Below, piece by piece: positions 1 through 61,444 of a stretch of 64,000 bases of DNA. The notes below the pieces were generated by a model, which saw only the letters and a program-made list of their open reading frames with translations, made no database searches and was not told the DNA's origin. Position numbers and translations under genes: made by a program. Source of the DNA: Escherichia coli (GTDB lineage: Bacteria > Pseudomonadota > Gammaproteobacteria > Enterobacterales > Enterobacteriaceae). The stretch lies in NCBI RefSeq assembly GCF_965641715.1, contig NZ_OZ282453.1. One strand, written 5' to 3'. Position 1 is the stretch's first letter. Each line of letters opens with the position of its first letter.

Positions 1-2288
1 CCACAACACGAAAATTTAAAACCGTTATCACCGATACGGGTGCAAAAAAATTAGCTCAGGCAGCCGCGCCAGATGGTAAGCCTGTCCGCCTGACTCATAT
101 GGCCGTGGGCGACGGTGGCGGCACGTTGCCCACACCAGACAGTAAGCAGACCCGTCTGGTGCATGAGGTGTGGCGACACACTGTTAATCGCGTCATCCTG
201 GACGCAACACATCAGAACCGCATTATTGCGGAGCTGGTTATTCCTCCAGAAACGGGCGGATTCTGGATCCGGGAAATTGGTGTGTTTGATGAGCACGGCG
301 ATTTAATCGCAGTAGGCAATACTGCCGAAAGTTACAAGCCAACCGTTGCCGAAGGGTCAGGACGTGCACAAACATTTCGCACCATTCTGACCGTATCCAG
401 CACTGCCACCGTGGCGCTTACCGTGGATAACACCATGGTAATGGCCACAGTGGATTACGTGGATGACAAACTGAAAGAGCATGAACACTCACGACGTCAC
501 CCGGACGCCTCGCTGACCGCAAAAGGCTTTGTTCAACTTAGCAGCGCCACTAACAGCACGTCTGAAACGCTTGCGGCAACGCCAAAGGCTGTTAAGGCGG
601 CATATGACCTGGCTAATGGCAAATACACCGCACAGGACGCTACCACTGCGCGAAAAGGGATAGTTCAGCTCAGTAGCGCCACCAACAGCACGTCTGAAAC
701 GCAGGCTGCAACGCCGAAAGCAGTAAAGGCCGCGTATGACCTTGCTAACGCAAAATATACCGCTCAGGACGCCACGACGGCACAAAAAGGGATAGTCCAG
801 CTCAGTAGTGCCACCAACAGCACGTCTGAAACACTGGCCGCGACATCGAAAGCGGTTAAGGCGGTAATGGATGAAACGAACAAGAAAGCGCCCTTAAACA
901 GTCCTGCGCTGACCGGAACGCCAACAACGCCAACTGCGCGACAGGGAACGAATAATACCCAAATCGCAAGCACGGCTTTCGTTATGGCTGCGATTGCCGC
1001 CCTTGTAGATTCGTCACCTGACGCACTGAATACGCTGAACGAGTTAGCGGCGGCGCTGGGAAACGACCCGAATTTTGCGACCACCATGACTAACGCGCTT
1101 GCGGGTAAGCAACCGAAAGATGCCACCCTGACGGCGCTGGCCGGGCTTGCTACTGCGGCAGACAGGTTTCCGTATTTTACGGGGAATGATGTCGCCAGCC
1201 TGGCAACCCTGACAAAAGTCGGGCGGGATATTCTTGCGAAATCGACCGTTGCTGCCGTTATCGAATACCTCGGTTTACAGGAAACGGTAAACAGGGCTGG
1301 TAACGCCGTGCAAAAAAATGGCGATACTTTGTCCGGTGGGCTTACTTTTGAAAATGACTCAATCCTTGCCTGGATTCGAAATACTGACTGGGCGAAGATT
1401 GGATTTAAAAATGATGCCGATGGTGACACTGATTCATACATGTGGTTTGAGACAGGCGACAACGGCAATGAATATTTCAAATGGAGAAGCAAACAAAGCA
1501 CCACAACAAAAGACCTGATGAATCTTAAATGGGATGCTTTGTATGTTCTTGTTAAAGCTCTTTTCAGCAGTGAAGTAAAAATATCGACAGTCAATGCACT
1601 GAGGATATTTAATTCATCTTTTGGTGCCATTTTTCGCCGTTCTGAAGAATGCCTGCATATCATCCCTACACGAGAGAATGAGGGGGAAAATGGTAATATA
1701 GGGCCACTACGTCCCTTTACGCTTAATCTCAGAACTGGCCGCATAACTATGGGGCATGGTCTGGATGTTACAGGAGATATAACAACTAACGCCTGGGTGT
1801 ATGCAAACAGGTTTGCTATTAATAGTGGCTCAACCTCATGGATTGATATGCGAAACCAGAATGTCATTTTTGGTAGAAACGCAGTATCAACAAGTTCTGC
1901 GCAGGCTTTGTTAAGACAAGACCATGCAGAACGCAAATTTTTTGTCGGTGGACTTGGTAACTACCAGTTTGGTTTTTACATGATTAATAACTCAAGGACA
2001 GCCAATGGCACCGATGGTCAGGCGTACATGGACAATAACGGTAACTGGCTTTGTGGCTCGCAAGTTATTCCTGGCAACTATGGCAATTTTGATTCCAGAT
2101 ATGTGAGAGATGTTCGCCTGGGTACGCGAGTTGTTCAATTGATGGCGCGTGGTGGTCGTTATGAAAAAGCCGGACACGCAATTACCGGATTAAGAATCAT
2201 TGGTGAAGTAGATGGCGATGATGAAGCCATCTTCAGGCCAATACAAAAATACATCAATGGCACATGGTATAACGTCGCACAGGTGTAA
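1..2288 (+). CDS. Phage tail fibre protein (P2 gpH-like), 5' end outside window
   Basis: Reading frame is open from base 3 to stop at 2286-2288. N-terminal MAVGDGGG and AKGFVQLSSATNSTSETLAATPKAVK motifs are typical of P2 H-type fibres. C-terminus ends in INGTWYN-like motif. Confidence 0.85.
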   Translation, partial: TTRKFKTVITDTGAKKLAQAAAPDGKPVRLTHMAVGDGGGTLPTPDSKQTRLVHEVWRHTVNRVILDATHQNRIIAELVIPPETGGFWIREIGVFDEHGDLIAVGNTAESYKPTVAEGSGRAQTFRTILTVSSTATVALTVDNTMVMATVDYVDDKLKEHEHSRRHPDASLTAKGFVQLSSATNSTSETLAATPKAVKAAYDLANGKYTAQDATTARKGIVQLSSATNSTSETQAATPKAVKAAYDLANAKYTAQDATTAQKGIVQLSSATNSTSETLAATSKAVKAVMDETNKKAPLNSPALTGTPTTPTARQGTNNTQIASTAFVMAAIAALVDSSPDALNTLNELAAALGNDPNFATTMTNALAGKQPKDATLTALAGLATAADRFPYFTGNDVASLATLTKVGRDILAKSTVAAVIEYLGLQETVNRAGNAVQKNGDTLSGGLTFENDSILAWIRNTDWAKIGFKNDADGDTDSYMWFETGDNGNEYFKWRSKQSTTTKDLMNLKWDALYVLVKALFSSEVKISTVNALRIFNSSFGAIFRRSEECLHIIPTRENEGENGNIGPLRPFTLNLRTGRITMGHGLDVTGDITTNAWVYANRFAINSGSTSWIDMRNQNVIFGRNAVSTSSAQALLRQDHAERKFFVGGLGNYQFGFYMINNSRTANGTDGQAYMDNNGNWLCGSQVIPGNYGNFDSRYVRDVRLGTRVVQLMARGGRYEKAGHAITGLRIIGEVDGDDEAIFRPIQKYINGTWYNVAQV
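522..870 (+). repeat. Tandem in-frame coding repeats in tail fibre (two full 132-138 nt units plus a partial third)
   Basis: Peptide (G/I)VQLSSATNSTSET(L/Q)AATPKAVKAAYDLAN(G/A)KYTAQDATTA(R/Q)KG occurs twice in full and a third time partially. Nucleotide copies differ at synonymous positions. Confidence 0.8.
1258..1283. other. gix/pix-like invertase crossover site (left), inside tail fibre gene
   Basis: ttatcgaatacctcggtttacaggaa is an imperfect inverted copy of 4323-4348 and resembles the Mu gix site as recalled. Confidence 0.7.
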
Positions 2289-2819
2289 ATGATGCAGCAT
2301 TTAAAAAATATTAAGTCTGGAAATCCTAAAACGAAAGAACAATATCAGCTAACAAAGAATTTTGATGTTATCTGGTTATGGTCCGAAGACGATAAAAACT
2401 GGTATGAGGAAGTGAAAAACTTTCAGCCAGACACAATAAAGATTGTTTACGATGCAAATAATATTATTGTCGCCATCACTAAAGATGCCTCCACGCTTAA
2501 CCCTGAAGGTTTTAGCGTCGTTGAGGTTCCTGATATTACAGCCAACCGCCGCGCTGATGATTCAGGAAAGTGGATGTTTAAGGATGGAGCTGTAGTTAAA
2601 CGGATTTATACGGCAGACGAACAGCAACAACAAGGCGAATCACAAAAGGCCGCATTGCTTTCCGAAGCTGAATCAGTCATCCAGCCGCTGGAACGCGCTG
2701 TCAGGCTGAATATGGCAACAGACGAGGAACGCACACGACTGGAAGCATGGGAACGCTACAGTGTTCTGGTCAGCCGTGTGGATACGGCAAATCCTGAATG
2801 GCCACAAAAGCCTGAATAA
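2289..2819 (+). CDS. Tail fibre assembly chaperone (gpG/Tfa-like), cassette A
   Basis: 176 aa ORF directly after fibre stop. N-terminus [23 protein letters not shown] and C-terminal region match the Tfa family; paralogous to 2848-3381. Confidence 0.85.
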
Positions 2820-2826
2820 AAATTAA

Positions 2827-2842
2827 GGCCCGCGATCGGGCC
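2827..2842. terminator. Short GC hairpin between convergent tfa genes
   Basis: ggcccg-cgat-cgggcc palindrome; T-rich flank on the minus-strand side only. Confidence 0.4.
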
Positions 2843-2847
2843 TTGTC

Positions 2848-3381
2848 TCATTCAGGTTGTTCGGGAAATGTTACTGGCAGGCTGGAGGTGTCTGTAGATT
2901 CGACTTTCTGCGCATAGAGCATCCACTCGGTTAATTTTTGTTTATTCTCGTCGGAAATGATGCCCAGCCGTAGCTGTGAGTCCCATAGCTGGGTTTTATC
3001 CCTAACGAGCTGTAGCAGGCTTTGCTTTTCATTTTCCGCCTGCTGCCTCTGCTCTTCCTCGGTATAAGTTCGCTTTACCACTACGCCATCTTTGAACATC
3101 CATTTACCAGAAATATCAGCCCGGCGATTTGCTGTAATATCAGGAACCTCAACGACGCTTGCGCCTTCTGGATTAATTGCTGAAACATCCTTTTCAATAC
3201 AAATAATAACGTTGTTGTGGTCATAGACCATTTTCAACGTATCAGGCTGAAAGTTCTTTTGTTCCTCATACCAGTTTTTCCCATCCTCTGTATAAAGCCA
3301 TTTGATGTTAAATTGTTTCGTTAGCTGGTATTGCTCTTTTGTTTTAGGGTTGCCAGCAGTAATATTTTTTAAGTGCATCAT
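2848..3381 (-). CDS. Tail fibre assembly chaperone, alternative cassette B
   Basis: 177 aa minus-strand paralogue of the 2289-2819 product ([22 protein letters not shown]...), convergent with it. Confidence 0.8.
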
Positions 3382-3383
3382 AA

Positions 3384-4322
3384 TTAAATACTCCCCGCGT
3401 TATACCACGTCCCATTAATGCAATACTGAATTGGCCTTGCCTGAGTTGTATCAATTAATTCATCACGGTTTCCGTTAACTGAACCCGTAACGACATAACC
3501 TGACCTGTCAGACCAGCCGGGACCATTCCATGTCTGAACAGATGACAGACCGCCAAGGCGAATACCTGTAATAAACCTTGAGTTACATTCTGCCTGCGTG
3601 TATGCACCAACATCTCCCGCAGAGGGTTTGCGGGTCGTGGTGTAAAACTCTGACCAGTTAGCCTCAAATCCATAACCATCACGCGCTGAACGATAAAAAA
3701 TACCGCCGTTCCTGTAATTCACGCGGAACTGTACAGCAGGGCAGCTCCCCGTATTCATATTGAAGTGGAGGATTAATGTCGATGCACCGCTGATATCTGC
3801 ATCATAAACACCGCTATTCCAGTTCCAGCCAACAGCTTTATCATTTGCAACCCTGCTTCCTGTTTGCCCTAAAGCAAATGCAGGCTGCTGGTTTTTCGTG
3901 TTGTAGTCTCTTCGCCAGCCAGGAGCATAAGCATCACCATGATTAATATAAGTGAATTGAGCGTTAGAGGTGCCGCCTCCGGTGGAAGTGCTTGGTGTTG
4001 TTACACGGATGGTCATGGCACCTTTATTACCCATAACCTCAATAACGCAACCTGCAAGATGAATAGTTCCACAGCCAGTATCGGTAATAATTTTATTATT
4101 GCCGTATGACCATGAACATTTGCACATCCAGTATGGGTGATTGAATGCCCCTTGAGAATCCAGCCATTCAATCAATTGTGCCGTTGTCCAGTTCCCTGCC
4201 CCTGTACTAATAGCACTGTGAAAAGCGCGACATGCACCAATATTTTTTGTGAAGGTATCTTTTCCTGGAATATCTGCGCCGTTCTGGTTTTTCTGTAATG
4301 CGCCAGAAGCCTGATTTACCGT
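3384..4322 (-). CDS. Promoterless alternative tail-fibre C-terminal cassette, expressed only after inversion
   Basis: Minus-strand frame is open from the crossover site at 4323 to a stop at 3384. It begins ...[12 protein letters not shown], matching the [11 protein letters not shown] junction of the plus-strand fibre, and ends [11 protein letters not shown]. It has no start codon of its own upstream. Confidence 0.75.
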
Positions 4323-4348
4323 TTCTTGTAAACCGAGGTTTTAGATAA
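4323..4348. other. gix/pix-like invertase crossover site (right)
   Basis: ttcttgtaaaccgaggttttagataa, inverted partner of 1258-1283, immediately upstream of the invertase gene. Confidence 0.7.
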
Positions 4349-4402
4349 TGGCCGTTTCTGACCTGCATGGCATGATTTACGCTTTTGGACGGGAGATTCA
4401 GC

Positions 4403-4990
4403 GTGCTGATTGGCTATGTAAGGGTATCAACAAATGACCAGAATACAGACCTGCAACGAAACGCTCTTGTTTGTGCAGGATGTGAACAAATATTTGAAGA
4501 TAAATTAAGCGGGACAAAGACAGACCGACCGGGATTAAAACGCGCTTTAAAGCGTCTTCAAAAAGGTGACACGCTGGTTGTCTGGAAACTGGATCGCCTC
4601 GGGCGAAGCATGAAACATCTGATTTCTCTCGTCGGGGAACTACGGGAGCGAGGGATTAATTTTCGCAGTCTGACCGACAGCATAGATACATCTTCTCCAA
4701 TGGGGCGTTTTTTCTTCCACGTGATGGGTGCCCTGGCTGAAATGGAACGTGAATTAATTGTTGAACGTACACTGGCCGGACTGGCAGCAGCGCGCGCACG
4801 GGGGCGCACAGGCGGACGTCGCCCGAAGCTGACAAAAGAACAGCATGAGCAAATAGCAAGGCTGATTAAAAACGGTCACGACAGAAAACAACTGGCAATA
4901 ATTTACGGCATTGGTACATCGACGATTTATCGTTACCACCCCGCAGGAGAATCAAGCGGAGCAATAGAGAAGAGTCAGAAAACAAAATAA
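4403..4990 (+). CDS. Serine DNA invertase (Pin/Gin/Hin/Cin family)
   Basis: N-terminus (V)LIGYVRVSTNDQNTDLQRNAL with catalytic serine context and a C-terminal helix-turn-helix region. Probable GTG start at 4403; the ORF track starts at a TTG at 4385. Confidence 0.9.
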   Translation: MLIGYVRVSTNDQNTDLQRNALVCAGCEQIFEDKLSGTKTDRPGLKRALKRLQKGDTLVVWKLDRLGRSMKHLISLVGELRERGINFRSLTDSIDTSSPMGRFFFHVMGALAEMERELIVERTLAGLAAARARGRTGGRRPKLTKEQHEQIARLIKNGHDRKQLAIIYGIGTSTIYRYHPAGESSGAIEKSQKTK

Positions 4991-5018
4991 CCGCTAATCT
5001 GACCATTAGCGGTTTTTG
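4990..5018. terminator. Bidirectional intrinsic terminator between invertase and tail gene U
   Basis: accgctaat-ctgacc-attagcggt hairpin followed by TTTTT; the reverse strand is also T-rich. Confidence 0.65.
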
Positions 5019-5025
5019 TGTTAAA

Positions 5026-5520
5026 TCAGAACAGCCCTTTAACTGAACTGGCCGCGCTGTTAAGAGATGATGTCACCTTATCTTTGAAGCCGGACAGCAT
5101 ATCGCTGAACGATGAGGATTGCAGGCGCTCCCGCAAATCCTCATCACAGCGTTCAAGGGTCAGTGAAAATTCTATCTTTTTCGCCTTACCGTAGCGATCA
5201 AACTCGGAACGGGTCGTATTCGTTCCGGTCAGGACATACATGCCGTAAATCTGCCCGACACCATCAATCAGAGGCCAGGGGCGTCCTGTATATGCCTGCG
5301 TGGTCAGCAACGAAAGCGACACTTCGCCACCTGTAATTTCAGGATAAAGCACACCAGAAAGAACGATGCGATCATCGCCTGCCCCGATATACTGCCAGCT
5401 TGCTGAACGGTTAACGCGTTCATTTTTCACATGCCGCCAGCTTTTGTTTTGCTGTAACTGCTGATGCGGCAACGTGCGCAGCTCAAAAACAAACATGCCG
5501 TAGATCATCATCATGGCCAT
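5026..5520 (-). CDS. Phage tail protein (P2 gpU-like)
   Basis: 164 aa ORF immediately downstream of the tape-measure gene on the minus strand; size and position match gpU. Exact start among the N-terminal Met codons is uncertain. Confidence 0.7.
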   Translation of the reverse strand: MAMMMIYGMFVFELRTLPHQQLQQNKSWRHVKNERVNRSASWQYIGAGDDRIVLSGVLYPEITGGEVSLSLLTTQAYTGRPWPLIDGVGQIYGMYVLTGTNTTRSEFDRYGKAKKIEFSLTLERCDEDLRERLQSSSFSDMLSGFKDKVTSSLNSAASSVKGLF

Positions 5521-5526
5521 GACTCC

Positions 5527-8334
5527 TCAATCTTTATCGTAAAAACTGCCACGCCCGGCACGGGCGCGCCGTTCCATTTCTGCCCTGACCATTTCACCGA
5601 CCAGTTTCGCCAGTTCGCGGGGATTCTGCGTAACAACGTTATGCAGATGAACATGAATTTCACCACCAAATCCGGAGGCAACAGGCTCCCGGTTACGGGA
5701 AGTTACAGGAACTGATGCCACTGGAGATCGTATGGCCTCCGCCACCGGGCGGGAGCTGGCCGCAACAACAGGGACCAGCGCCGGAGGCAGCGGAGCCGGG
5801 ACCACGGGGGTGATATTAATTGCGGGGGCAGGCTTACTGACCTGCGCAATCTTCCGCTCCTGCCACTCCCCACGAACAGCAAGTGCGCGGGGCAGGTTCT
5901 TAAAGACAATATCGCCGGGGCCAATGCGTTTTTTCGTCTCATCAACCAGCTTACCTGTGTTATCAGCAATTTTGCTGAGTCTGCGTAGCGTCCCGGTATT
6001 GCTGTCTGTGAGCGGTTTATTGTCTTTGGGGTTATCACCTCCGGTGCCATTGCCATTTTCCACAGGCTTCGGCGGATTGATTTTCGCCAGGTCCCCCTGA
6101 AGCAAGGCAACCTTGTCCTGAAGAATGGCCGCACGCTGTGCGTCTTCGATTTTCTTTCTCGCCCTTTCCGCTTCATCCGGAAGCACACCGAGTTTTTCAA
6201 GTATCCACGCCAGCGTATCCAGCAGCATTTTTGCAGGCGTCAGAACAAGCTGTAGCGCGCCACCAAGAACGTTACCGAATATCTCGCCAGCACTGGTACA
6301 TTTATCCAGCGTTTCCTTGCTGGACTCCATCGGTGACAGCAGCGATTTAAACCAGTTAAAGAGCTGAATAATCCCATCGCGCACGACATCAAAAACAGGA
6401 CCAAACCGTTCAAAGGTTTCGCGCAACGGAGCCAGCCGTTCCATAATTCCACTGAACACCCCGGCATAAAACGCCTTGATGGGTTCCCAGTATTTCCAGA
6501 TGAGAACCGCCGCAGCCACAAACGCGGCAACAATCAATCCGACCGGACTGAACAGCGCCCCGATAGCGCCACCCAGCAACGAGATGGAACCTGTTACCAT
6601 TCCCCATAGTGCTGGCAGCACCCTGACGACATTCATTGATCCGGTCAGGAGAGAAAAACCAAGACGTAACGTGGCCAGTTTCCCGTGAAGCACGCCAATA
6701 ACCAGCGACAACGAGCCAATCGTTGCAGTCATTGCCAGCAACGCACCGCCTGCTATCAGTAGCTGGCGCGTCAGTGCCGGATGGGCCTGCGCCAGCGCCG
6801 TCACCCTTGATACCACCCGCGTGAGCCACTGCGTGACAGAACGCAGCGGGCCGTCAATCAGATCTGCAATGCGGATGCGCAACCCTTCCCATGCACTGCC
6901 GAGTGATTTCAGATCGCCGTCAAGGTTGTTGGCCATAACCTTTGCTGTGCGTTCAGCCTCACCGCGCGCGCCTTCAAGTTCTTTTCTCAGTTTAGGTAAG
7001 GAACCGTCACCCGCTGCATCAACGAGCGCCATAAACGATGTGAAAGCCTCTTCTCCGGCAATGTCCTTAAAGAACGATACCCGGTCAACTTCCCCGTATT
7101 TGCGGGTGGCTTTATAAAGGTCGGCCAGCACATCCTCCATCGGGCGCATTTTGCCGTTCGCGTCAGAGACTGCCACACCAAGCTCTTTCAGCGCCTCTGC
7201 TGCCGCCTTTGGCGGTGATGCAAGACGAGCCAGGCTGGCACGCATTGCCGTCCCGGCATCACTTCCCCTGATACCCATATTCGCCAGCACGCCCGCCATC
7301 GCTGCGGCCTGCTCCAGCGATATTCCCAGCTTGCCCGCCACCGGACCTGCATATTTCATGGTTTCGCCCAGTGCGCGAAGGTCAGTGTTGGTACGGGTAA
7401 ACGCTGCGGTGAGCGTGTCACCGACCCGGTCCATCTGGTCAGCAGAAAGGCCGAACTGCGTCAGGATATTTGAGCCAATATCTGCCGTCTCGCCGAGATC
7501 CATACCGCCAGCCGTTGCCATGCTCAGCACTCCGGGGAGCGCAGCCTGAATGGCCTGCGGTGTGAAGCCAGCCATTGCAAGAAATGCCTGCCCACTGGCG
7601 GCATCGCCTGCGGTGAACTGCGTTTCAGAGCCAAGTTTTAACGCCTGCTCACGCAGCGCCTTAAACTGCGGGCTGTTCTGGTCGATTCGCGTCAGCGCCT
7701 GAACGCGGGACATCTCTTTGCCGAACCCGATCGCGGGCTGCAAAAAACGCCCGGCAGCATAGCCGCCCGCCGCTGCCGCACCAATTGCCAGCGCACCACC
7801 TGTTTTCAGTTTTCCCGCGGTTTCCTGCGCGCGCGAATACCGCTCACGCGCCCGCGTTACACGCGCAAGCGCCTGCCGTTCGCGTTCAAGCTGGTTGTTG
7901 TACTGTTCGGTGCGTCTGATGGCCTGCTGGATGGTGTTATCGCTGCCTGTCAGGGAAATGCCGTGGCGTTTCAGCTCTCCGCCAAGTTCCCGCATTTTCT
8001 GAATTTCCCGTGTGCGCGATTCATTCAGGCGTTCAAGCCGGGTGCTTAACTGCTGCATCAGCTTTTGTTGTTTTTCGCTGAGCACTGTACCCGTGCGTTG
8101 TAACTGATTAAGAGCGTTAAGCTGGCGTCGTGCTTTCAATATGCCAGCATCCGCTTTACTGACAGCGTCACGGGCGCGCTCAAATGAACGCGCCTGACGC
8201 TCGAGATTTTTGATCGCCCCCTGCGTTCGCTGGATGGAGTCACCAAACTGCCCCATCAGGCGGCGGGCGTTTTCGGCAGGCCGGGTCAGCCTGTCAACGG
8301 CGCTGAAAGCGACCCGGATATCAAGAGTCTTCAT
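5527..8334 (-). CDS. Tail tape-measure protein (P2 gpT-like)
   Basis: About 935 aa, Ala/Gly-rich with predicted coiled-coil and membrane-like segments, downstream of the E/E' pair. ATG start at 8334 preferred over the GTG at 8370. Confidence 0.85.
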   Translation of the reverse strand: MKTLDIRVAFSAVDRLTRPAENARRLMGQFGDSIQRTQGAIKNLERQARSFERARDAVSKADAGILKARRQLNALNQLQRTGTVLSEKQQKLMQQLSTRLERLNESRTREIQKMRELGGELKRHGISLTGSDNTIQQAIRRTEQYNNQLERERQALARVTRARERYSRAQETAGKLKTGGALAIGAAAAGGYAAGRFLQPAIGFGKEMSRVQALTRIDQNSPQFKALREQALKLGSETQFTAGDAASGQAFLAMAGFTPQAIQAALPGVLSMATAGGMDLGETADIGSNILTQFGLSADQMDRVGDTLTAAFTRTNTDLRALGETMKYAGPVAGKLGISLEQAAAMAGVLANMGIRGSDAGTAMRASLARLASPPKAAAEALKELGVAVSDANGKMRPMEDVLADLYKATRKYGEVDRVSFFKDIAGEEAFTSFMALVDAAGDGSLPKLRKELEGARGEAERTAKVMANNLDGDLKSLGSAWEGLRIRIADLIDGPLRSVTQWLTRVVSRVTALAQAHPALTRQLLIAGGALLAMTATIGSLSLVIGVLHGKLATLRLGFSLLTGSMNVVRVLPALWGMVTGSISLLGGAIGALFSPVGLIVAAFVAAAVLIWKYWEPIKAFYAGVFSGIMERLAPLRETFERFGPVFDVVRDGIIQLFNWFKSLLSPMESSKETLDKCTSAGEIFGNVLGGALQLVLTPAKMLLDTLAWILEKLGVLPDEAERARKKIEDAQRAAILQDKVALLQGDLAKINPPKPVENGNGTGGDNPKDNKPLTDSNTGTLRRLSKIADNTGKLVDETKKRIGPGDIVFKNLPRALAVRGEWQERKIAQVSKPAPAINITPVVPAPLPPALVPVVAASSRPVAEAIRSPVASVPVTSRNREPVASGFGGEIHVHLHNVVTQNPRELAKLVGEMVRAEMERRARAGRGSFYDKD

Positions 8335-17044: not shown

Positions 17045-17106
17045 CCTAAAGAATCAAGACGATCCGGTACGCGTGATTTTCTTTTCACATTAATCTGGTC
17101 AATAAC

Positions 17107-17134
17107 CTTGAATAATTGAGGGATGACCTCATTT
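17107..17134 (+). promoter_or_regulatory. Sigma-32 heat-shock promoter of clpB
   Basis: CTTGAA, 14 nt spacer, CCTCATTT (consensus CCCCATnT), about 40 bp upstream of the clpB start. Confidence 0.65.
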
Positions 17135-17173
17135 AATCTCCAGTAGCAACTTTGATCCGTTATGGGAGGAGTT

Positions 17174-19747
17174 ATGCGTCTGGATCGTCTTACTAATAAA
17201 TTCCAGCTTGCTCTTGCCGATGCCCAATCACTTGCACTCGGGCACGACAACCAATTTATCGAACCACTTCATTTAATGAGCGCCCTGCTGAATCAGGAAG
17301 GGGGTTCGGTTAGTCCTTTATTAACATCCGCTGGCATAAATGCTGGCCAGTTGCGCACAGATATCAATCAGGCATTAAATCGTTTACCGCAGGTTGAAGG
17401 TACTGGTGGTGATGTCCAGCCATCACAGGATCTGGTGCGCGTTCTGAATCTTTGCGACAAGCTGGCGCAAAAACGTGGTGATAACTTTATCTCGTCAGAA
17501 CTGTTCGTTCTGGCGGCACTTGAGTCTCGCGGCACGCTGGCCGACATCCTGAAAGCAGCAGGGGCGACCACCGCCAACATTACTCAAGCGATTGAACAAA
17601 TGCGTGGAGGTGAAAGCGTGAACGATCAAGGTGCTGAAGACCAACGTCAGGCTTTGAAAAAATATACCATCGACCTTACCGAACGAGCCGAACAGGGCAA
17701 ACTCGATCCGGTGATTGGTCGTGATGAAGAAATTCGCCGTACCATTCAGGTGCTGCAACGTCGTACTAAAAATAACCCGGTACTGATTGGTGAACCCGGC
17801 GTCGGTAAAACTGCCATCGTTGAAGGTCTGGCGCAGCGTATTATCAACGGCGAAGTGCCGGAAGGGTTGAAAGGCCGCCGGGTACTGGCGCTGGATATGG
17901 GCGCGCTGGTGGCTGGGGCGAAATATCGCGGTGAGTTTGAAGAACGTTTAAAAGGCGTGCTTAACGATCTTGCCAAACAGGAAGGCAACGTCATCCTGTT
18001 TATCGACGAATTACATACCATGGTCGGCGCGGGTAAAGCCGATGGCGCAATGGACGCCGGAAACATGCTGAAACCGGCGCTGGCGCGTGGTGAATTGCAC
18101 TGCGTAGGTGCCACGACGCTTGACGAATATCGCCAGTACATCGAAAAAGATGCTGCGCTGGAACGTCGTTTCCAGAAAGTGTTTGTTGCCGAGCCTTCTG
18201 TTGAAGATACCATTGCGATTCTGCGTGGCCTGAAAGAACGTTACGAATTGCACCACCATGTGCAAATTACTGACCCGGCAATTGTTGCAGCGGCGACGTT
18301 GTCTCATCGCTATATTGCTGACCGTCAGCTGCCGGATAAAGCCATCGACCTGATCGATGAAGCAGCATCCAGCATTCGTATGCAGATTGACTCAAAACCA
18401 GAAGAACTCGACCGACTCGATCGCCGTATCATCCAGCTCAAACTGGAACAACAGGCGTTAATGAAAGAGTCTGATGAAGCCAGTAAAAAACGTCTGGATA
18501 TGCTCAACGAAGAACTGAGCGACAAAGAACGTCAGTACTCCGAGTTAGAAGAAGAGTGGAAAGCAGAGAAAGCATCGCTTTCTGGTACGCAGACCATTAA
18601 AGCGGAACTGGAACAGGCGAAAATCGCTATTGAACAGGCTCGCCGTGTGGGTGACCTGGCGCGGATGTCTGAACTGCAATACGGCAAAATCCCGGAACTG
18701 GAAAAGCAACTGGAAGCCGCAACGCAGCTCGAAGGCAAAACTATGCGTCTGTTGCGTAATAAAGTGACCGACGCCGAAATTGCTGAAGTGCTGGCGCGTT
18801 GGACGGGGATTCCGGTTTCTCGCATGATGGAAAGCGAGCGCGAAAAACTGCTGCGTATGGAGCAAGAACTGCACCATCGCGTAATTGGTCAGAACGAAGC
18901 GGTTGATGCGGTATCTAACGCTATTCGTCGTAGCCGTGCGGGGCTGGCGGATCCAAATCGCCCGATTGGTTCATTCCTGTTCCTCGGCCCAACTGGTGTG
19001 GGGAAAACAGAGCTTTGTAAGGCGCTGGCGAACTTTATGTTTGATAGCGACGAGGCGATGGTCCGTATCGATATGTCCGAGTTTATGGAGAAACACTCGG
19101 TGTCTCGTCTGGTTGGTGCGCCTCCGGGATATGTTGGTTATGAAGAAGGTGGCTACCTGACCGAAGCTGTGCGTCGTCGTCCGTATTCCGTCATCCTGCT
19201 GGATGAAGTGGAAAAAGCGCATCCGGATGTCTTCAACATTCTGTTGCAGGTACTGGATGATGGGCGTCTGACTGACGGGCAGGGGAGAACGGTCGACTTC
19301 CGTAATACGGTTGTCATTATGACCTCTAACCTCGGTTCCGATTTGATTCAGGAACGCTTCGGTGAACTGGATTATGCGCATATGAAAGAGCTGGTGCTCG
19401 GTGTGGTAAGCCATAACTTCCGTCCGGAGTTCATTAACCGTATCGATGAAGTGGTGGTCTTCCATCCGCTGGGCGAACAGCACATTGCCTCGATTGCGCA
19501 GATTCAGTTGAAACGTCTGTACAAACGTCTGGAAGAACGTGGTTATGAAATCCACATTTCTGACGAGGCGCTGAAACTGCTGAGCGAGAACGGTTACGAT
19601 CCGGTCTATGGTGCACGTCCTTTGAAACGTGCTATCCAGCAGCAGATCGAAAACCCGTTGGCACAGCAAATACTGTCTGGTGAATTGGTTCCGGGTAAAG
19701 TTATTCGCCTGGAAGTTAATGAAGACCGGATTGTCGCCGTCCAGTAA
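17174..19747 (+). CDS. clpB: Chaperone/disaggregase ClpB
   Basis: 857 aa from [11 protein letters not shown], two AAA+ modules ([16 protein letters not shown]); GGGAGGAG RBS. Confidence 0.97.
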
Positions 19748-20188: not shown

Positions 20189-21730
<1,542 letters not shown>

Positions 21731-21815
21731 CCTTAAAGAAGCGTACTTTGCAGTGCTCACACAGATTGTCTGATAGAAAGTGAAAAGCAAGGCGTCTTGC
21801 GAAGCAGACTGATAC

Positions 21816-21891
21816 GTCCCCTTCGTCTAGAGGCCCAGGACACCGCCCTTTCACGGCGGTAACAGGGGTTCGAATCCCCTAGGGGACGCCA
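21816..21891 (+). tRNA. gltW: tRNA-Glu (anticodon UUC) in the 16S-23S spacer
   Basis: GTCCCCTTCGTCTAGAGGCCCAGGACACCGCCCTTTCACGGCGGTAACAGGGGTTCGAATCCCCTAGGGGACGCCA. Confidence 0.97.
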
Positions 21892-22084
21892 CTTGCTGGT
21901 TTGTGAGTGAAAGTCGCCGACCTTAATATCTCAAAACTCATCTTCGGGTGATGTTTGAGATATTTGCTCTTTAAAAATCTGGATCAAGCTGAAAATTGAA
22001 ACACTGAACAACGAAAGTTGTTCGTGAGTCTCTCAAATTTTCGCAACACGATGATGGATCGCAAGAAACATCTTCGGGTTGTGA

Positions 22085-24988
<2,904 letters not shown>

Positions 24989-25080
24989 ACAACGCCGAAG
25001 CTGTTTTGGCGGATGAGAGAAGATTTTCAGCCTGATACAGATTAAATCAGAACGCAGAAGCGGTCTGATAAAACAGAATT

Positions 25081-25200
25081 TGCCTGGCGGCCGTAGCGCG
25101 GTGGTCCCACCTGACCCCATGCCGAACTCAGAAGTGAAACGCCGTAGCGCCGATGGTAGTGTGGGGTCTCCCCATGCGAGAGTAGGGAACTGCCAGGCAT
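25081..25200 (+). rRNA. rrfG: 5S ribosomal RNA
   Basis: TGCCTGGCGGCCGTAGCGCGGTGGTCCCACC ... GAACTGCCAGGCAT; 120 nt. Confidence 0.97.
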
Positions 25201-42339: not shown

Positions 42340-43295
42340 TGAAGCAACTTTGGTTTGCCATGTCATTAGTGACAGGTAGCCTGTTATTCTCTGCTAACGC
42401 CTCGGCCACTCCCGCGTCCGGGGCGTTATTACAGCAGATGAACCTGGCCAGTCAGTCACTGAATTACGAGCTGTCATTCATCAGCATCAATAAACAGGGT
42501 GTTGAGTCTCTGCGTTATCGACATGCACGCCTCGATAACCGTCCTCTTGCACAATTGTTGCAAATGGATGGCCCGCGCCGGGAAGTGGTACAGCGCGGCA
42601 ATGAAATCAGCTATTTTGAACCGGGCCTTGAACCGTTTACTCTTAATGGCGATTACATTGTTGATTCTCTGCCATCGCTCATCTATACCGATTTCAAACG
42701 CCTTTCTCCTTACTACGACTTTATCTCCGTCGGGCGCACGCGTATTGCTGATCGTCTTTGTGAAGTTATTCGCGTGGTTGCTCGTGATGGCACACGCTAC
42801 AGCTACATCGTGTGGATGGACACCGAATCGAAATTACCGATGCGGGTTGATCTTCTTGATCGCGATGGTGAAACGCTGGAACAATTTCGCGTGATTGCTT
42901 TTAACGTCAATCAGGATATCAGCAGCAGTATGCAGACGCTGGCGAAGGCAAATTTGCCGCCGTTGCTTTCTGTTCCTGTAGGTGAAAAAGCTAAATTCAG
43001 CTGGACGCCAACCTGGTTGCCACAGGGTTTTAGCGAAGTTTCCAGTAGTCGACGTCCGCTACCGACGATGGACAACATGCCTATCGAATCACGTCTCTAT
43101 TCCGACGGATTATTCAGCTTCTCGGTAAACGTTAACCGCGCTACGCCATCGAGCACCGATCAGATGTTGCGCACCGGACGCAGAACCGTCAGTACAAGCG
43201 TACGTGATAACGCCGAAATCACCATTGTCGGTGAACTGCCGCCGCAAACGGCGAAACGCATTGCCGAGAATATTAAGTTCGGGGCAGCGCAATGA
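42339..43295 (+). CDS. rseB: Sigma-E regulatory protein RseB
   Basis: 318 aa with signal peptide; operon position. Confidence 0.96.
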   Translation: MKQLWFAMSLVTGSLLFSANASATPASGALLQQMNLASQSLNYELSFISINKQGVESLRYRHARLDNRPLAQLLQMDGPRREVVQRGNEISYFEPGLEPFTLNGDYIVDSLPSLIYTDFKRLSPYYDFISVGRTRIADRLCEVIRVVARDGTRYSYIVWMDTESKLPMRVDLLDRDGETLEQFRVIAFNVNQDISSSMQTLAKANLPPLLSVPVGEKAKFSWTPTWLPQGFSEVSSSRRPLPTMDNMPIESRLYSDGLFSFSVNVNRATPSSTDQMLRTGRRTVSTSVRDNAEITIVGELPPQTAKRIAENIKFGAAQ

Positions 43296-43771
43296 TCAAA
43301 GAGTGGGCTACCGTCGTCTCCTGGCAAAACGGGCAGGCGCTGGTCAGTTGTGATGTTAAAGCCTCATGCAGCAGCTGCGCTTCACGCGCCGGTTGCGGTA
43401 GCCGCGTGTTGAATAAACTTGGCCCGCAAACCACGCATACCATTGTCGTACCCTGTGATGAGCCGTTAGTGCCGGGGCAAAAAGTGGAATTGGGGATCGC
43501 CGAAGGCAGCCTGCTTAGCTCCGCATTACTGGTTTATATGTCGCCGCTGGTGGGATTACTCCTCATCGCTTCGCTATTTCAGCTACTCTTTGCTTCTGAC
43601 GTCGCAGCATTATGTGGTGCGGTCCTCGGCGGTATTGGCGGGTTCCTGATTGCTCGCGGCTACTCGCGTAAGTTTGCTGCCCGGGCAGAATGGCAACCGA
43701 TCATATTAAGCGTGGCATTGCCGCCTGGCCTTGTGCGATTTGAAACATCTTCGGAAGACGCGAGCCAGTGA
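43292..43771 (+). CDS. rseC: RseC/SoxR-reducing system membrane protein
   Basis: 159 aa, Cys-rich N-terminus and two transmembrane segments; overlaps rseB stop. Confidence 0.95.
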   Translation: MIKEWATVVSWQNGQALVSCDVKASCSSCASRAGCGSRVLNKLGPQTTHTIVVPCDEPLVPGQKVELGIAEGSLLSSALLVYMSPLVGLLLIASLFQLLFASDVAALCGAVLGGIGGFLIARGYSRKFAARAEWQPIILSVALPPGLVRFETSSEDASQ

Positions 43772-43968
43772 TTTCACTGGCTTTGTTGCATTTTGCATAA
43801 CAAATGCGAGGACGTTTCCAGATACCACAATCCATACGGTATGAACATTTCCTCGCCTCAATGTTGTAGTGTAGAATGCGGCGTTTCTATTAATACAGAC
43901 GTTAAGCTCAGAACAGCGACTTCTAAAAGCCTGGTTAACCGGGCATTAAGGCACAATAATCATACTTT

Positions 43969-45768
<1,800 letters not shown>

Positions 45769-46802: not shown

Positions 46803-46903
46803 AATTATTTATGAGATAAATCTCCCGTGGCTAACGACATCCCCCGTCGTTGTGTATAGAATATTCCCCCGAAGTTTAAGGTTGGCACCTCCAGGTTGCC
46901 ACG

Positions 46904-46997
46904 GCACACGAAACAGCGTTGGTCCCCATATACCGCTAAACTGAAACTGCAGCGAAGCAGTTAGCAGAGCCATGTATATCAGGTCTGTTTCGTGTGC
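46904..46997 (+). promoter_or_regulatory. rnc leader long-range stem (RNase III autoregulatory processing site)
   Basis: gcacacgaaacag (46904-46916) pairs with ctgtttcgtgtgc (46985-46997), just upstream of the rnc start. Confidence 0.6.
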
Positions 46998-47000
46998 TGA

Positions 47001-48613
<1,613 letters not shown>

Positions 48614-50476: not shown

Positions 50477-50896
50477 AAATAATACCGTTCTCTTTAAAAA
50501 GTAAAACCCCCGAACTGGTAAGGAACGGGGGTTTTACTTTGTAACTTTAATTTAGTGCAGCACGCACCCTCAACAACAGCGATTATGGATCAGGGTAGTT
50601 ATCTTTTACAAGCAACTTGCAATCTTTATCATAAAAACTCGAGCCTTTACGAAGAAAGCGATATTGATGGCAAGATTAACGTGACCGCCAATTCGTAAGT
50701 ACATTAAAATTGGTTTCGTTATTGGCGATTTTGCTGTGCTTTACACCATGCCACAGAATTCCCCCATTGAAACGAGTGGTGTCGTCAAAGCTCTGGTGTG
50801 GAGTGCAGCATGCACCCTCAATAACTCGCACGTTCAGTTTTGGGGAGATGTAAGGGCTAATCTGAACGGCTGCATTCCTTGTTTAAGGAAAAACGA

Positions 50897-58500: not shown

Positions 58501-59441
58501 TCTGGTGGGCAGAAACTACCTGGCAGATGCAGCGCCTGCGTGACAACCCGGAGTGTGCCGACCAGGAGCACCAGGCGAAATCAAACGACGCCGATCCTGG
58601 CCTGAATGTGAAACTGTCGTTCGATATCAACGAAGATGTGGCAGCACCGTATATTGCCACTGGCGCACGTCCGAAAGTTGCCGTGCTGCGTGAGCAGGGT
58701 GTGAACTCACATGTTGAAATGGCGGCAGCCTTCCACCGTGCAGGCTTCGATGCAATCGATGTGCATATGAGCGACCTGCTGGCTGGACGCACGGGCCTGG
58801 AGGATTTTCACGCCCTGGTCGCGTGCGGAGGTTTCTCCTACGGTGATGTGCTGGGTGCCGGTGAAGGTTGGGCGAAGTCTATCCTGTTCAATGACCGTGT
58901 ACGCGATGAGTTTGCAACCTTCTTCCACCGTCCGCAAACGCTGGCGCTGGGGGTATGTAACGGTTGCCAGATGATGTCTAATCTGCGTGAACTGATCCCA
59001 GGTAGTGAGTTGTGGCCACGTTTTGTGCGCAATACCTCCGATCGCTTTGAAGCGCGTTTCAGCCTGGTTGAAGTGACCCAAAGCCCGTCGCTGCTGTTGC
59101 AGGGGATGGTGGGCTCGCAAATGCCGATTGCTGTCTCTCATGGTGAAGGGCGCGTGGAAGTGCGTGATGCGGCGCATCTGGCGGCACTGGAAAGCAAAGG
59201 GCTGGTGGCACTGCGCTATGTCGATAACTTCGGCAAAGTCACTGAAACCTACCCGGCTAACCCGAACGGTTCTCCGAACGGTATTACGGCGGTCACGACT
59301 GAAAGCGGTCGAGTCACCATTATGATGCCGCACCCGGAACGTGTTTTCCGTACTGTCAGCAACTCCTGGCATCCTGAAAACTGGGGCGAGGATGGCCCAT
59401 GGATGCGCATTTTCCGCAATGCACGTAAGCAGTTGGGGTAA
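55554..59441 (+). CDS. purL: Phosphoribosylformylglycinamidine synthase
   Basis: 1295 aa from [23 protein letters not shown]; large single-chain FGAM synthase. Confidence 0.98.
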
Positions 59442-59462
59442 GTCGTCAGCCCATTGGTTTTG

Positions 59463-59495
59463 CAGCCCGGATGAGGCATTCACGCCGCATCCGGC
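59463..59495. repeat. REP palindromic element
   Basis: gcccggatgaggcattcacgccgcatccggc is the typical REP inverted repeat. Confidence 0.6.
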
Positions 59496-59518
59496 ATTAA
59501 ATACTAACCGCTATTATA

Positions 59519-59544
59519 AGCTCCCAACTCAGGGAGCTTTTTTG
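59519..59544 (+). terminator. purL intrinsic terminator
   Basis: agctccc-aactca-gggagct followed by TTTTTTG. Confidence 0.75.
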
Positions 59545-60016
59545 TGTCTGTAAATCACGACAATGGGTGGTTTGCTGTGTCGCTTTTTGGTGACATTTAA
59601 CTCATTGATTTTAATGTCATCTAATAAGTTTTTCTTAAGTTGTCTCTTTTTAGCGACACAGTGGCTGATTTACATTCAAATAGCGGGGAAGCCATAAACC
59701 CCTCAAAGCAACGTATAATCAGTACGTTACCAAACTATTTTCTTTATTGGCACAGTTACTGCATAATAGTAACCAGTGGCTCATTCACCGACTTATGTCA
59801 GCCCCTTCGGGACGTGCTACATAAAATTCGAATGACGCACAACAAGGTGCCTGCCGTCCAACTTCTGATATCAGCGTAGCTATATCAACCATCGGGCGAA
59901 ACGTCGAGTTAGGCACCGCCTTATTCCATAACAAAGCCGGGTAATTCCCGGCTTTGTTGTATCTGAACTTCCCCTCGGTTAGCATCAGGCTATTCGCGTC
60001 TGACGAGAGTAACACC

Positions 60017-61444
60017 TTGAAACGCTGGCCCGTTTTTCCCCGCTCATTACGACAACTGGTAATGCTGGCATTTTTGCTGATTCTGCTACCCCTGTTGGTG
60101 CTGGCATGGCAAGCCTGGCAAAGCCTGAATGCGCTTAGCGACCAGGCGGCGCTGGTCAACCGCACCACGCTTATCGATGCCCGGCGCAGTGAAGCGATGA
60201 CCAACGCGGCACTGGAGATGGAGCGTAGCTACCGTCAGTATTGCGTGCTGGACGACCCTACGCTTGCGAAGGTTTATCAAAGCCAGCGCAAGCGTTACAG
60301 CGAAATGCTCGATGCCCACGCAGGCGTACTGCCAGACGATAAACTTTACCAGGCATTGCGTCAGGATTTGAACAATCTGGCCCAACTTCAGTGTAACAAC
60401 AGTGGTCCCGATGCTGCCGCCGCCGCGCGTCTTGAAGCCTTTGCCAGTGCCAATACCGAAATGGTGCAGGCCACGCGCACCGTGGTGTTCTCTCGTGGGC
60501 AGCAACTTCAGCGTGAAATCGCCGAACGTGGGCAATATTTTGGTTGGCAATCGCTGGTGCTATTTCTGGTGAGTCTGGTAATGGTACTGCTTTTCACGCG
60601 AATGATTATCGGTCCGGTGAAAAATATCGAGAGGATGATCAACCGGTTGGGGGAAGGGCGTTCTCTGGGCAATAGCGTTTCGTTCAGTGGACCGAGCGAG
60701 TTACGCTCGGTTGGGCAACGTATTCTTTGGTTAAGTGAGCGCCTGTCATGGCTGGAATCCCAACGCCATCAATTTTTAAGACATTTATCTCATGAATTAA
60801 AAACGCCACTGGCGAGTATGCGCGAGGGCACTGAATTACTGGCTGATCAGGTTGTCGGGCCGCTTACGCCAGAGCAAAAAGAGGTGGTGAGCATTCTTGA
60901 TAGCAGCAGCCGCAATTTGCAAAAACTGATCGAACAACTGCTTGATTACAACCGTAAACAGGCGGACAGTGCGGTGGAACTGGAGAATGTTGAATTAGCA
61001 CCGCTGGTGGAGACAGTGGTTTCTGCTCATAGCCTGCCCGCACGGGCTAAAATGATGCATACCGACGTCGATCTCAAAGCAACAGCTTGCCTGGCGGAGC
61101 CAATGCTGCTGATGAGCGTACTGGATAATCTTTACTCCAATGCGGTGCACTACGGGGCTGAATCCGGTAACATTTGCCTTCGCAGCAGTTTACATGGTGC
61201 GCGGGTTTATATTGATGTTATCAATACAGGCGCGCCCATTCCGCAAGAGGAACGCGCCATGATCTTCGAACCCTTTTTTCAGGGAAGCCACCAGCGAAAA
61301 GGGGCGGTGAAGGGCAGCGGTCTGGGATTAAGCATTGCCAGGGATTGTATTCGCCGTATGCAAGGGGAACTGTATCTGGTCGACGAGAGCGGGCAAGACG
61401 TTTGTTTCCGCATTGAATTACCGTCGTCGAAAAACACGAAATAA
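60017..61444 (+). CDS. glrK: Sensor histidine kinase GlrK/QseE (YfhK)
   Basis: 475 aa, two transmembrane segments, HAMP, HELKTPL H-box, ATPase domain. TTG start assumed to give (M)KRWPVF. Confidence 0.9.
   Translation: MKRWPVFPRSLRQLVMLAFLLILLPLLVLAWQAWQSLNALSDQAALVNRTTLIDARRSEAMTNAALEMERSYRQYCVLDDPTLAKVYQSQRKRYSEMLDAHAGVLPDDKLYQALRQDLNNLAQLQCNNSGPDAAAAARLEAFASANTEMVQATRTVVFSRGQQLQREIAERGQYFGWQSLVLFLVSLVMVLLFTRMIIGPVKNIERMINRLGEGRSLGNSVSFSGPSELRSVGQRILWLSERLSWLESQRHQFLRHLSHELKTPLASMREGTELLADQVVGPLTPEQKEVVSILDSSSRNLQKLIEQLLDYNRKQADSAVELENVELAPLVETVVSAHSLPARAKMMHTDVDLKATACLAEPMLLMSVLDNLYSNAVHYGAESGNICLRSSLHGARVYIDVINTGAPIPQEERAMIFEPFFQGSHQRKGAVKGSGLGLSIARDCIRRMQGELYLVDESGQDVCFRIELPSSKNTK

What the first reader, a model, noticed from the sequence alone, without database searches (positions are those of the whole stretch)
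59442..60016. 575-bp purL–glrK gap with REP element and several hairpins but no ORF
After the purL terminator (59519-59544) there is a REP element (59463-59495), an inverted repeat tgtgtcgct / agcgacaca about 60 nt apart (around 59575-59665), and a hairpin aaagccggg-taatt-cccggcttt (59931-59958) directly upstream of glrK. This may simply be the glrK promoter and leader, but the density of structure is compatible with an unannotated small RNA or regulatory leader.
Basis: seen in the sequence. Interest (0 to 1): 0.15.

Follow-up and report, generated by a model that had tools for sequence, protein, structure and literature searches.

The report
Known GlmY small RNA gene
The "empty" 575-bp gap between purL and glrK holds the well-studied E. 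coli small RNA gene glmY with its sigma-54 promoter and activator-binding sites, so the finding is real but ordinary and already explained.

Summary
Together with a few more motifs, they account for the whole purL–glrK gap using known elements.

- **glmY:** window 59775–59958 (+) is the small RNA gene glmY (SroF/Tke1). It matches Rfam RF00128 at 147 bits against a cut-off of 33. It aligns base for base with the annotated K-12 ncRNA glmY (b4441, 184 nt), with one mismatch.
- **Hairpin "upstream of glrK":** 59930–59958 is the GlmY terminator.
- **Inverted repeat:** tgtgtcgct/agcgacaca is not an RNA stem. It is the left half of GlrR/QseF-binding site ABS2 and the right half of ABS3.
- **GlrR sites:** three exact TGTC-N10-GACA motifs lie at 59545–59658, the only exact ones in the 64 kb.
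- **Promoter:** these sites sit upstream of a sigma-54 promoter (TGGCAC-N6-TGCA, 59748–59763) that overlaps a sigma-70 −10 box. Two IHF consensus sites lie in between.
- **purL 3′ end:** the REP (59465–59495) and the hairpin at 59518–59545 belong to the purL 3′ end.

In 120 Enterobacterales species the order purL→glmY→glrK, the sigma-54 motif and the GlrR sites recur. The GlmY fold shows compensatory base changes.

Verdict: already known. Interest is low.

The parts
59465..59495 (-). Single REP (repetitive extragenic palindromic) unit in the purL 3' untranslated region
   Evidence: Exact palindromic unit located. The REP head motif is shared with a canonical REP elsewhere in K-12 and with orthologous copies in other Escherichia. 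Sub-threshold match to the REP-derived Rfam family naRNA4. K-12 has an 18-bp deletion inside it.
59518..59545 (+). Intrinsic terminator of purL (8-bp G+C-rich stem, 6-nt loop, T run)
   Evidence: Only terminator-like site found by the scan. Inverted repeat I8. Folds as a clean hairpin.
59545..59562 (.). GlrR/QseF activator-binding site ABS1 (TGTC-N10-GACA), -230..-213 from glmY +1
   Evidence: Exact motif match. Motif and site arrangement as described in PMC3045617. A site at -226..-230 recurs in most related species.
59578..59595 (.). GlrR/QseF activator-binding site ABS2, -197..-180.
   Evidence: Exact motif match. Direct-repeat family D1 with ABS3. A site at about -195..-197 recurs across species.
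59598..59610 (-). IHF consensus site (distal, between ABS2 and ABS3)
   Evidence: Exact match to WATCARNNNNTTR. PMC3045617 reports two IHF-like sites flanking ABS3 and that the distal one is essential for the sigma-54 promoter. The assignment to this exact site is inferred.
59641..59658 (.). GlrR/QseF activator-binding site ABS3, -134..-117.
   Evidence: Exact motif match. Inverted repeat I5 with ABS2.
59717..59729 (+). IHF consensus site (proximal, between ABS3 and the promoter)
   Evidence: Exact match to WATCARNNNNTTR. Position agrees with PMC3045617. The assignment is inferred.
59748..59767 (+). glmY promoter: sigma-54 element TGGCAC-N6-TGCA (59748-59763) overlapping the sigma-70 -10 box CATAAT (59762-59767)
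   Evidence: Only match to the sigma-54 pattern in 64 kb. TGGCAY-N6-TGCW is present at -27..-25 in 118 of 119 species loci, against 5 matches in 1.87 Mb of background. The CATAAT -10 and the overlapping-promoter arrangement are described in PMC3045617.
59775..59958 (+). glmY small RNA gene, 184 nt. Stem-loop 1 is 59776-59840, stem-loop 2 is 59846-59917, and the terminator stem-loop is 59930-59958. The processed 148-nt form would end near 59922.
   Evidence: Rfam RF00128 GlmY_tke1 hit at 59775-59922, 147.1 bits against a cut-off of 33. The K-12 ncRNA glmY b4441 maps exactly to 59775-59958 with one mismatch. Fold of -64.2 kcal/mol, z = -5.5. Covariation across 119 sequences. The 184-nt and 148-nt sizes come from PMC4152352.
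59957..59992 (+). Inferred sigma-70 promoter of the glrK(qseE)-qseG-glrR(qseF) operon: -35 TTGTAT 59957-59962, -10 TAGCAT 59980-59985, start near 59992
   Evidence: [quoted passage not shown] 60017 minus 25 gives 59992. The hexamers are my reading of the sequence and were not detected by the consensus scan. This part is an inference.
60017..61444 (+). glrK/qseE sensor kinase gene (TTG start), context only
   Evidence: ORF. HisKA and HATPase_c domains. Annotated as glrK/qseE in the homologous E. coli records.

Best explanation
The purL-glrK gap is the glmY locus of Escherichia coli. After the purL stop codon come a REP element and the purL terminator. Next is the glmY control region: three palindromic binding sites for the sigma-54 activator GlrR (QseF), two IHF sites that bend the DNA, and a sigma-54 promoter that overlaps a weak sigma-70 promoter. 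Transcription starts at 59775 and ends at the 59930-59958 hairpin, giving the 184-nt GlmY RNA, which is trimmed to about 148 nt.

From the literature, GlmY acts as a decoy. It mimics its homologue GlmZ and sequesters the RNase E adaptor RapZ. GlmZ therefore survives and activates translation of glmS, the enzyme that makes glucosamine-6-phosphate for the cell envelope. The kinase and activator that switch glmY on (GlrK, QseG, GlrR) are encoded immediately downstream and have their own weak promoter in the 58-nt spacer.

Shown here: the identity and boundaries of the gene, the motifs, the fold, its conservation and covariation, and the synteny.

Taken from the literature and not tested here: transcription start sites, processing, protein binding and the decoy mechanism.
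For: - Rfam GlmY_tke1 match at 147 bits, E = 8e-33, over the full model.
- The annotated K-12 glmY (b4441, 184 nt) maps to 59775-59958 with 1 substitution. The upstream control region carries 11 substitutions in 203 nt.
- Three exact TGTC-N10-GACA sites, the only exact ones in 64 kb.
- A unique sigma-54 motif 27 nt upstream of +1.
- Exact IHF consensus sites flanking ABS3.
- The predicted three-stem-loop fold has z = -5.5.
- Across 120 Enterobacterales species the element always lies between purL and glrK in the same orientation.
- The fold is 92.3% paired, against 35-43% when the partners are slid. 26 pairs show compensatory changes, against 17.9 in shuffles.
- The sigma-54 motif is present in 118 of 119 loci.
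- Two or more exact GlrR motifs occur in 99 of 114 upstream regions, against 0.012 per 300 nt of background.
- The downstream genes encode a histidine kinase, the YfhG/QseG lipoprotein and a response regulator with a sigma-54 interaction domain.
- The published architecture matches: PMC3045617, PMC4152352, PMC6075780.
Against: Nothing substantive.

- No expression data exist for this particular strain.
- The window is at most 99.2% identical to any complete E. coli genome in the collection over this stretch.
- The sigma-70-only promoter scan found nothing.
- The terminator scan missed the GlmY terminator, probably because its T run is interrupted and partly inside the extended stem.
- The cross-species set was chosen by an exact match inside stem-loop 2, so helices 5, 6 and 8 are invariant partly by construction.
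- The tested structure was derived from the window's own fold.
Confidence: 0.97

Rival explanations
1. The structures are only the promoter and 5' leader of glrK, and no separate RNA gene exists.
For: The hairpin at 59930-59958 lies 58 nt before the glrK start. In Proteus mirabilis, glmY-qseE-qseG-qseF is reported as one operon (PMC8745638 abstract).
Against: - A full-length Rfam GlmY match and the K-12 ncRNA annotation cover 59775-59958.
- In K-12 the qseEGF operon is reported to start 25 nt upstream of its start codon, and read-through from glmY is reported as virtually absent (PMC6075780).
- The spacer itself has no significant structure, z = -0.9.
Confidence: 0.02
2. In addition to GlmY, the gap encodes a second, undescribed transcript. 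One candidate is a purL 3'-UTR-derived RNA ending at the 59518-59545 terminator and carrying the REP. Another is an RNA using the 59575-59661 inverted repeat as a stem.
For: The REP plus terminator segment folds with z = -3.8 and the 59545-59774 segment with z = -2.8. 3'-UTR-derived small RNAs are common in enterobacteria (general knowledge).
Against: - No Rfam family reaches threshold outside GlmY.
- The inverted repeat is fully explained by two palindromic GlrR sites that share the half-site TGTGTCGC. It lies between a terminator and a promoter.
- The REP region is the least conserved part of the gap, with an 18-bp deletion and 6 substitutions in K-12.
- The region 59563-59697 is only 75-80% identical in other Escherichia species.
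Confidence: 0.03
3. One of the mechanical ORFs in the gap (44, 79 or 139 aa) encodes a small protein.
For: The ORFs exist.
Against: No Pfam match. In-frame stops are present in the orthologous regions of other Escherichia and related genera. The ORFs overlap the GlrR sites, glmY itself, or the antisense strand of glmY and glrK.
Confidence: 0.01

Closest known systems
GlmY (SroF/Tke1) small RNA of Enterobacteriaceae, Rfam RF00128
   Same: Sequence (1 mismatch to K-12 over 184 nt), three-stem-loop fold, length, position between purL and glrK, sigma-54/sigma-70 overlapping promoter, three GlrR sites and IHF sites.
   Different: Nothing of note. There is one substitution in an unpaired stretch (59828 T, where K-12 has A) and a few substitutions in the upstream activating region that leave all three TGTC-N10-GACA cores intact.
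GlmZ (SraJ/RyiA), Rfam clan CL00011 with GlmY
   Same: Homologous RNA with the same two 5' stem-loops. It is bound by the same protein, RapZ (PMC4152352).
   Different: GlmZ is encoded at another locus, carries the glmS base-pairing site that GlmY lacks, and in E. coli is transcribed from a plain sigma-70 promoter (PMC3045617). In the Rfam clan competition the window sequence scored best as GlmY.
REP (repetitive extragenic palindromic) elements of E. coli
   Same: A ~31-nt imperfect palindrome with the GCCGGATGCGGCG head, located between a stop codon and a terminator.
   Different: A single unit rather than a BIME cluster. It is partly deleted in K-12.

Membership tests
GlmY_tke1 (Rfam RF00128) | Sequence and secondary structure score above the family's curated gathering threshold | tested here: met
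   147.1 bits against 33, model positions 1-163 of 163, + strand only.
GlmY_tke1 (Rfam RF00128) | Orthology with the annotated E. coli K-12 glmY gene (b4441) | tested here: met
   The K-12 ncRNA at 2691157-2691340 aligns to window 59775-59958 with 1 substitution and no indel.
GlmY_tke1 (Rfam RF00128) | Conserved position immediately upstream of the glrK(qseE)-qseG-glrR(qseF) operon and downstream of purL | tested here: met
   Window gene order. purL and/or glrK were found next to the element in all 120 species loci, as far as the flanks were held. In each case purL lies upstream, glrK lies downstream, and the orientation is the same.
GlmY_tke1 (Rfam RF00128) | Fold of two 5' stem-loops plus a terminator stem-loop, supported by covariation | tested here: met
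   MFE fold with z = -5.5. RNAalifold recovers the main stems. 92.3% of cells are paired against 35-43% when slid, and 26 pairs have compensatory changes. Caveat: helices 5, 6 and 8 overlap the search pattern.
GlmY_tke1 (Rfam RF00128) | Transcription from a sigma-54 promoter activated by GlrR bound to three TGTC-N10-GACA sites, with IHF | tested here: met
   The motifs are present at the published distances and conserved across species. Actual binding and activation were not testable here.
GlmY_tke1 (Rfam RF00128) | 184-nt primary transcript processed to a 148-nt active form | not testable with these tools
   The sizes come from PMC4152352. The Rfam match spans exactly 148 nt (59775-59922) and the gene spans 184 nt, which is consistent but is not an experiment.
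GlmY_tke1 (Rfam RF00128) | Binds RapZ and protects GlmZ (decoy function) | not testable with these tools
   Literature only (PMC4152352, PMC7073468).
REP element | Imperfect ~35-nt palindrome with the conserved GCC(G/T)GATG(C/A)G(G/A)CG head, extragenic and multi-copy | tested here: met
   Palindrome and head motif at 59465-59495. The same head and body occur in an unrelated K-12 intergenic region and at the orthologous site in other Escherichia. Copy number across a whole genome was not measured.
Intrinsic (Rho-independent) terminator | G+C-rich stem-loop followed directly by a U run | tested here: met
   The purL terminator at 59518-59545 is detected by the scan. The GlmY terminator at 59930-59958 has a 12-bp stem, but its tail TTTGTTGT is interrupted and the scan did not call it.

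The most novel reading that the evidence does not exclude
Beyond GlmY, the strain-variable REP-containing purL 3' end (intact here, carrying an 18-bp deletion in K-12) might give rise to a stable 3'-UTR-derived RNA. Alternatively it might alter purL mRNA stability, or the insulation between purL transcription and the glmY upstream activating sites, in a strain-specific way.
Probability: 0.03. Interest if true: 0.2.

Novelty: already known. Interest (0 to 1): 0.04.

Why it matters
It matters only as a clean-up. The gap is not empty and not mysterious. It contains a textbook regulatory RNA that links a two-component system (GlrK/QseG/GlrR) to cell-envelope precursor synthesis through the GlmY–RapZ–GlmZ–glmS cascade.

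The practical lesson is about annotation. A PGAP-annotated E. coli genome shows no feature here, whereas the curated K-12 record does. Scans that flag "structured gaps without ORFs" should therefore first be screened against Rfam.

Tried and rejected
- **Sigma-70 promoter scan of 59300–60200:** no sites found. This is uninformative, because the main promoter is sigma-54 type and the sigma-70 promoters here are weak.
- **Terminator scan:** it missed the GlmY terminator. I accepted the hairpin from the repeat finder and the fold instead.
- **More REP copies in the window:** searches with the full unit and with the 14-nt head found only the one copy. A degenerate head motif then found related copies in K-12 and other Escherichia.
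- **REP annotation in K-12:** the K-12 RefSeq table lists no repeat features for the 50 kb fetched, so REP annotation could not be used.
- **Sigma-54 pattern across species:** my first regular expression was too strict (63 of 114). Relaxing one position gave 118 of 119.
- **RNAalifold on the MAFFT alignment:** it recovered only 28 pairs, because the variable loops are poorly aligned. I therefore counted pairs on the window's own fold and note the bias this introduces.
- **Small-protein idea:** tested and rejected.
- **Riboswitch or leader for glrK:** considered and rejected. There is no Rfam match outside GlmY, and the spacer fold is no better than shuffled sequence.

Full report
**What is in the sequence**

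  - a REP-like palindrome around 59454–59507 (I1; exact unit at 59465–59495);
  - a terminator-like hairpin at 59518–59539 followed by a T run;
  - a perfect 10-nt inverted repeat, 59575–59584 with 59652–59661 (I5);
  - a perfect 12-bp hairpin at 59930–59958 (I4).
- The only slips are in wording. The REP precedes the terminator, and the last hairpin ends 58 nt before glrK.

**What it is**

- A scan of the whole window against Rfam gives a full-length match to GlmY_tke1 (RF00128) at 59775–59922 on the + strand. The score is 147.1 bits against a gathering score of 33, E = 8e-33. A sensitive rescan of the gap gives the same hit and nothing else above threshold.
- The stretch is present in 5425 of 5426 complete E. 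coli genomes.
- In the curated K-12 MG1655 record, the homologous place carries the ncRNA gene glmY (b4441, 184 nt) between purL and glrK.
- Aligning the window to K-12 maps that gene exactly onto 59775–59958, with one substitution and no indel.
- A PGAP-annotated genome that is 99.2% identical to the window lists no feature in the gap. That explains why the gap can look empty.

**The RNA**

- The 184-nt sequence folds into two stem-loop domains (59776–59840 and 59846–59917) plus a terminator stem-loop (59930–59958). The energy is −64.2 kcal/mol and the z-score −5.5 against shuffles. This agrees with the Rfam consensus structure.
- The literature describes GlmY as a 184-nt RNA rapidly trimmed at its 3′ end to an active 148-nt form (PMC4152352). 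The Rfam match spans exactly 148 nt, ending at 59922.

**The control region**

[quoted passage not shown] The sigma-54 activator GlrR binds three TGTC-N10-GACA sites more than 100 bp upstream. Two IHF-like sites flank the third site (PMC3045617).
- All of this is present in the window:
  - three exact TGTC-N10-GACA motifs at 59545–59562, 59578–59595 and 59641–59658, which are the only exact matches in 64 kb;
  - the only TGGCAC-N6-TGCA match in the window, at 59748–59763, overlapping CATAAT at 59762–59767;
  - exact IHF consensus matches at 59598–59610 and 59717–59729.
Two palindromic protein sites that share the half-site TGTGTCGC necessarily look like an inverted repeat.
- The repeat lies upstream of the transcription start, so it is not an RNA stem.
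- The modest folding z-score of this segment (−2.8) is what such palindromes would produce.

**The ends of the gap**

- The REP and the 59518–59545 hairpin form the purL 3′ end. Together they fold with z = −3.8.
- The REP has the canonical head and body of E. coli REPs. K-12 has an 18-bp deletion inside it.
- The 58-nt glmY–glrK spacer has no significant structure, z = −0.9.
- In K-12 the qseEGF operon is reported to start from a sigma-70 promoter immediately downstream of glmY, 25 bp before the start codon. Read-through from glmY is reported as virtually absent (PMC6075780).
- That places the start near 59992. I read plausible hexamers TTGTAT (59957–59962) and TAGCAT (59980–59985). This is an inference, and the consensus scan did not call them.
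- The downstream genes encode a histidine kinase, the YfhG/QseG lipoprotein and a response regulator with a sigma-54 interaction domain. These are the proteins that act on the sites found upstream.

- One exact-pattern scan of species-representative genomes, using 20 specified bases from stem-loop 2, returned 120 loci, all Enterobacterales by title except one mislabelled record.
- Wherever the flanks were held, purL lies upstream and glrK downstream in the same orientation.
- I built a structure-blind MAFFT alignment of 119 distinct sequences and counted pairs for the window's fold:

| Measure | Observed | Control |
|---|---|---|
| Cells forming a standard pair | 92.3% | 87.4% shuffled; 35–43% with partners slid |
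| Pairs with changes on both sides | 26 | 17.9 shuffled (0 of 500 shuffles reach 26) |
| Cells with changes on both sides | 254 | 62 shuffled |

- The compensatory changes sit in helices 3, 4, 7 and 9, which were not part of the search pattern.
- Helices 5, 6 and 8 overlap the pattern and are invariant partly by construction. The structure came from one of the aligned sequences. Both caveats temper the numbers but not the conclusion.
- RNAalifold independently recovers the main stems.
- Upstream, TGGCAY-N6-TGCW occurs at −27 to −25 in 118 of 119 loci, against 5 matches in 1.87 Mb of flanking sequence.
- Two or more exact GlrR motifs occur in 99 of 114 upstream regions, against a background of 0.012 per 300 nt.

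**Coding potential**

- The mechanical ORFs in the gap (44, 79 and 139 aa) have no Pfam match.
- They carry in-frame stops in orthologous regions.

**How it works**

- Shown here: gene identity, boundaries, motifs, fold, covariation and synteny.
- From the literature, not tested here:
  1. [quoted passage not shown]
  2. GlmY is processed to 148 nt and accumulates when glucosamine-6-phosphate is low.
  3. It sequesters the RNase E adaptor RapZ by mimicking GlmZ.
  4. GlmZ is thereby spared and activates glmS translation (PMC4152352, PMC3045617, PMC7073468).

**Verdict**

A small RNA is there, but it is the known, annotated GlmY, and only one of the four listed structures belongs to it.
- Novelty: already known. 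Interest: very low.

Noticed in passing
window 59475-59492, compared with L002 (K-12): K-12 MG1655 lacks 18 bp from the middle of the purL-proximal REP that is intact in the window and in strain Res13. The purL 3' UTR is the most variable part of the gap, with 6 substitutions plus the deletion in 103 nt.
   Followed up: partly
L001 (NZ_CP062811.1) 1643-2217: A PGAP-annotated complete E. coli genome lists no feature between purL and qseE, although the glmY sequence there is identical to the window. The curated K-12 record annotates glmY.
   Followed up: yes
L089 (MAG Enterobacteriaceae bacterium UBA3516) 1045-7687: In this relative, about 6.7 kb is inserted between purL and glmY. It encodes three proteins that match the PADLOC models RT_XIII, SWIM_XIII and WGR_XIII with E-values from 1e-191 to 1e-296, which indicates a type XIII retron defence system. 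The purL-glmY spacer can therefore host a defence island.
   Followed up: partly
L067 (Yersinia pestis NCTC5923) 1844-2350: An IS200-like transposase gene (Pfam Y1_Tnp, E = 1e-37) sits between glmY and glrK. It stretches that spacer to about 1.2 kb.
   Followed up: partly
L015, L016, L019, L021, L023, L028, L029, L033, L040, L059, L064 and others: In Serratia, Yersinia, Pectobacterium, Dickeya and Brenneria, the distance from the GlmY core to glrK is 160-525 nt rather than about 97 nt. The sequence after the conserved CCGCC differs from the Escherichia terminator. I did not examine what fills the longer spacer.
   Followed up: no
L004 (E. albertii), L009, L028, L029, L109: The distance from the purL stop codon to GlmY is 1.1-1.6 kb rather than about 0.4-0.6 kb, which suggests further insertions upstream of the glmY control region. 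Not examined.
   Followed up: no
L109 (CACSKA010000009.1): A record titled Chryseobacterium sp. 18061 carries a typical enterobacterial purL-glmY-glrK locus, with PurL 88% and GlrK 81% identical to the window. It is probably a mislabelled or contaminated assembly.
   Followed up: no
window 17055-17193, 20189-25198, 43256-44087, 46871-47085, 50498-50574: Other Rfam matches in the window: RyfD, a complete rRNA operon with a tRNA and StyR-44 in the spacer, AsrC antisense to rseC, the rncO leader, and OhsC. The gene order matches K-12 at about 2.69-2.75 Mb in reverse orientation. All are known features.
   Followed up: partly
window 59563-59697, compared with L024, L055, L086: The GlrR/IHF upstream activating region is only 75-80% identical between the window and the other Escherichia species representatives, while glmY itself stays above 90%. 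The exact TGTC/GACA cores are kept where they were checked.
   Followed up: partly
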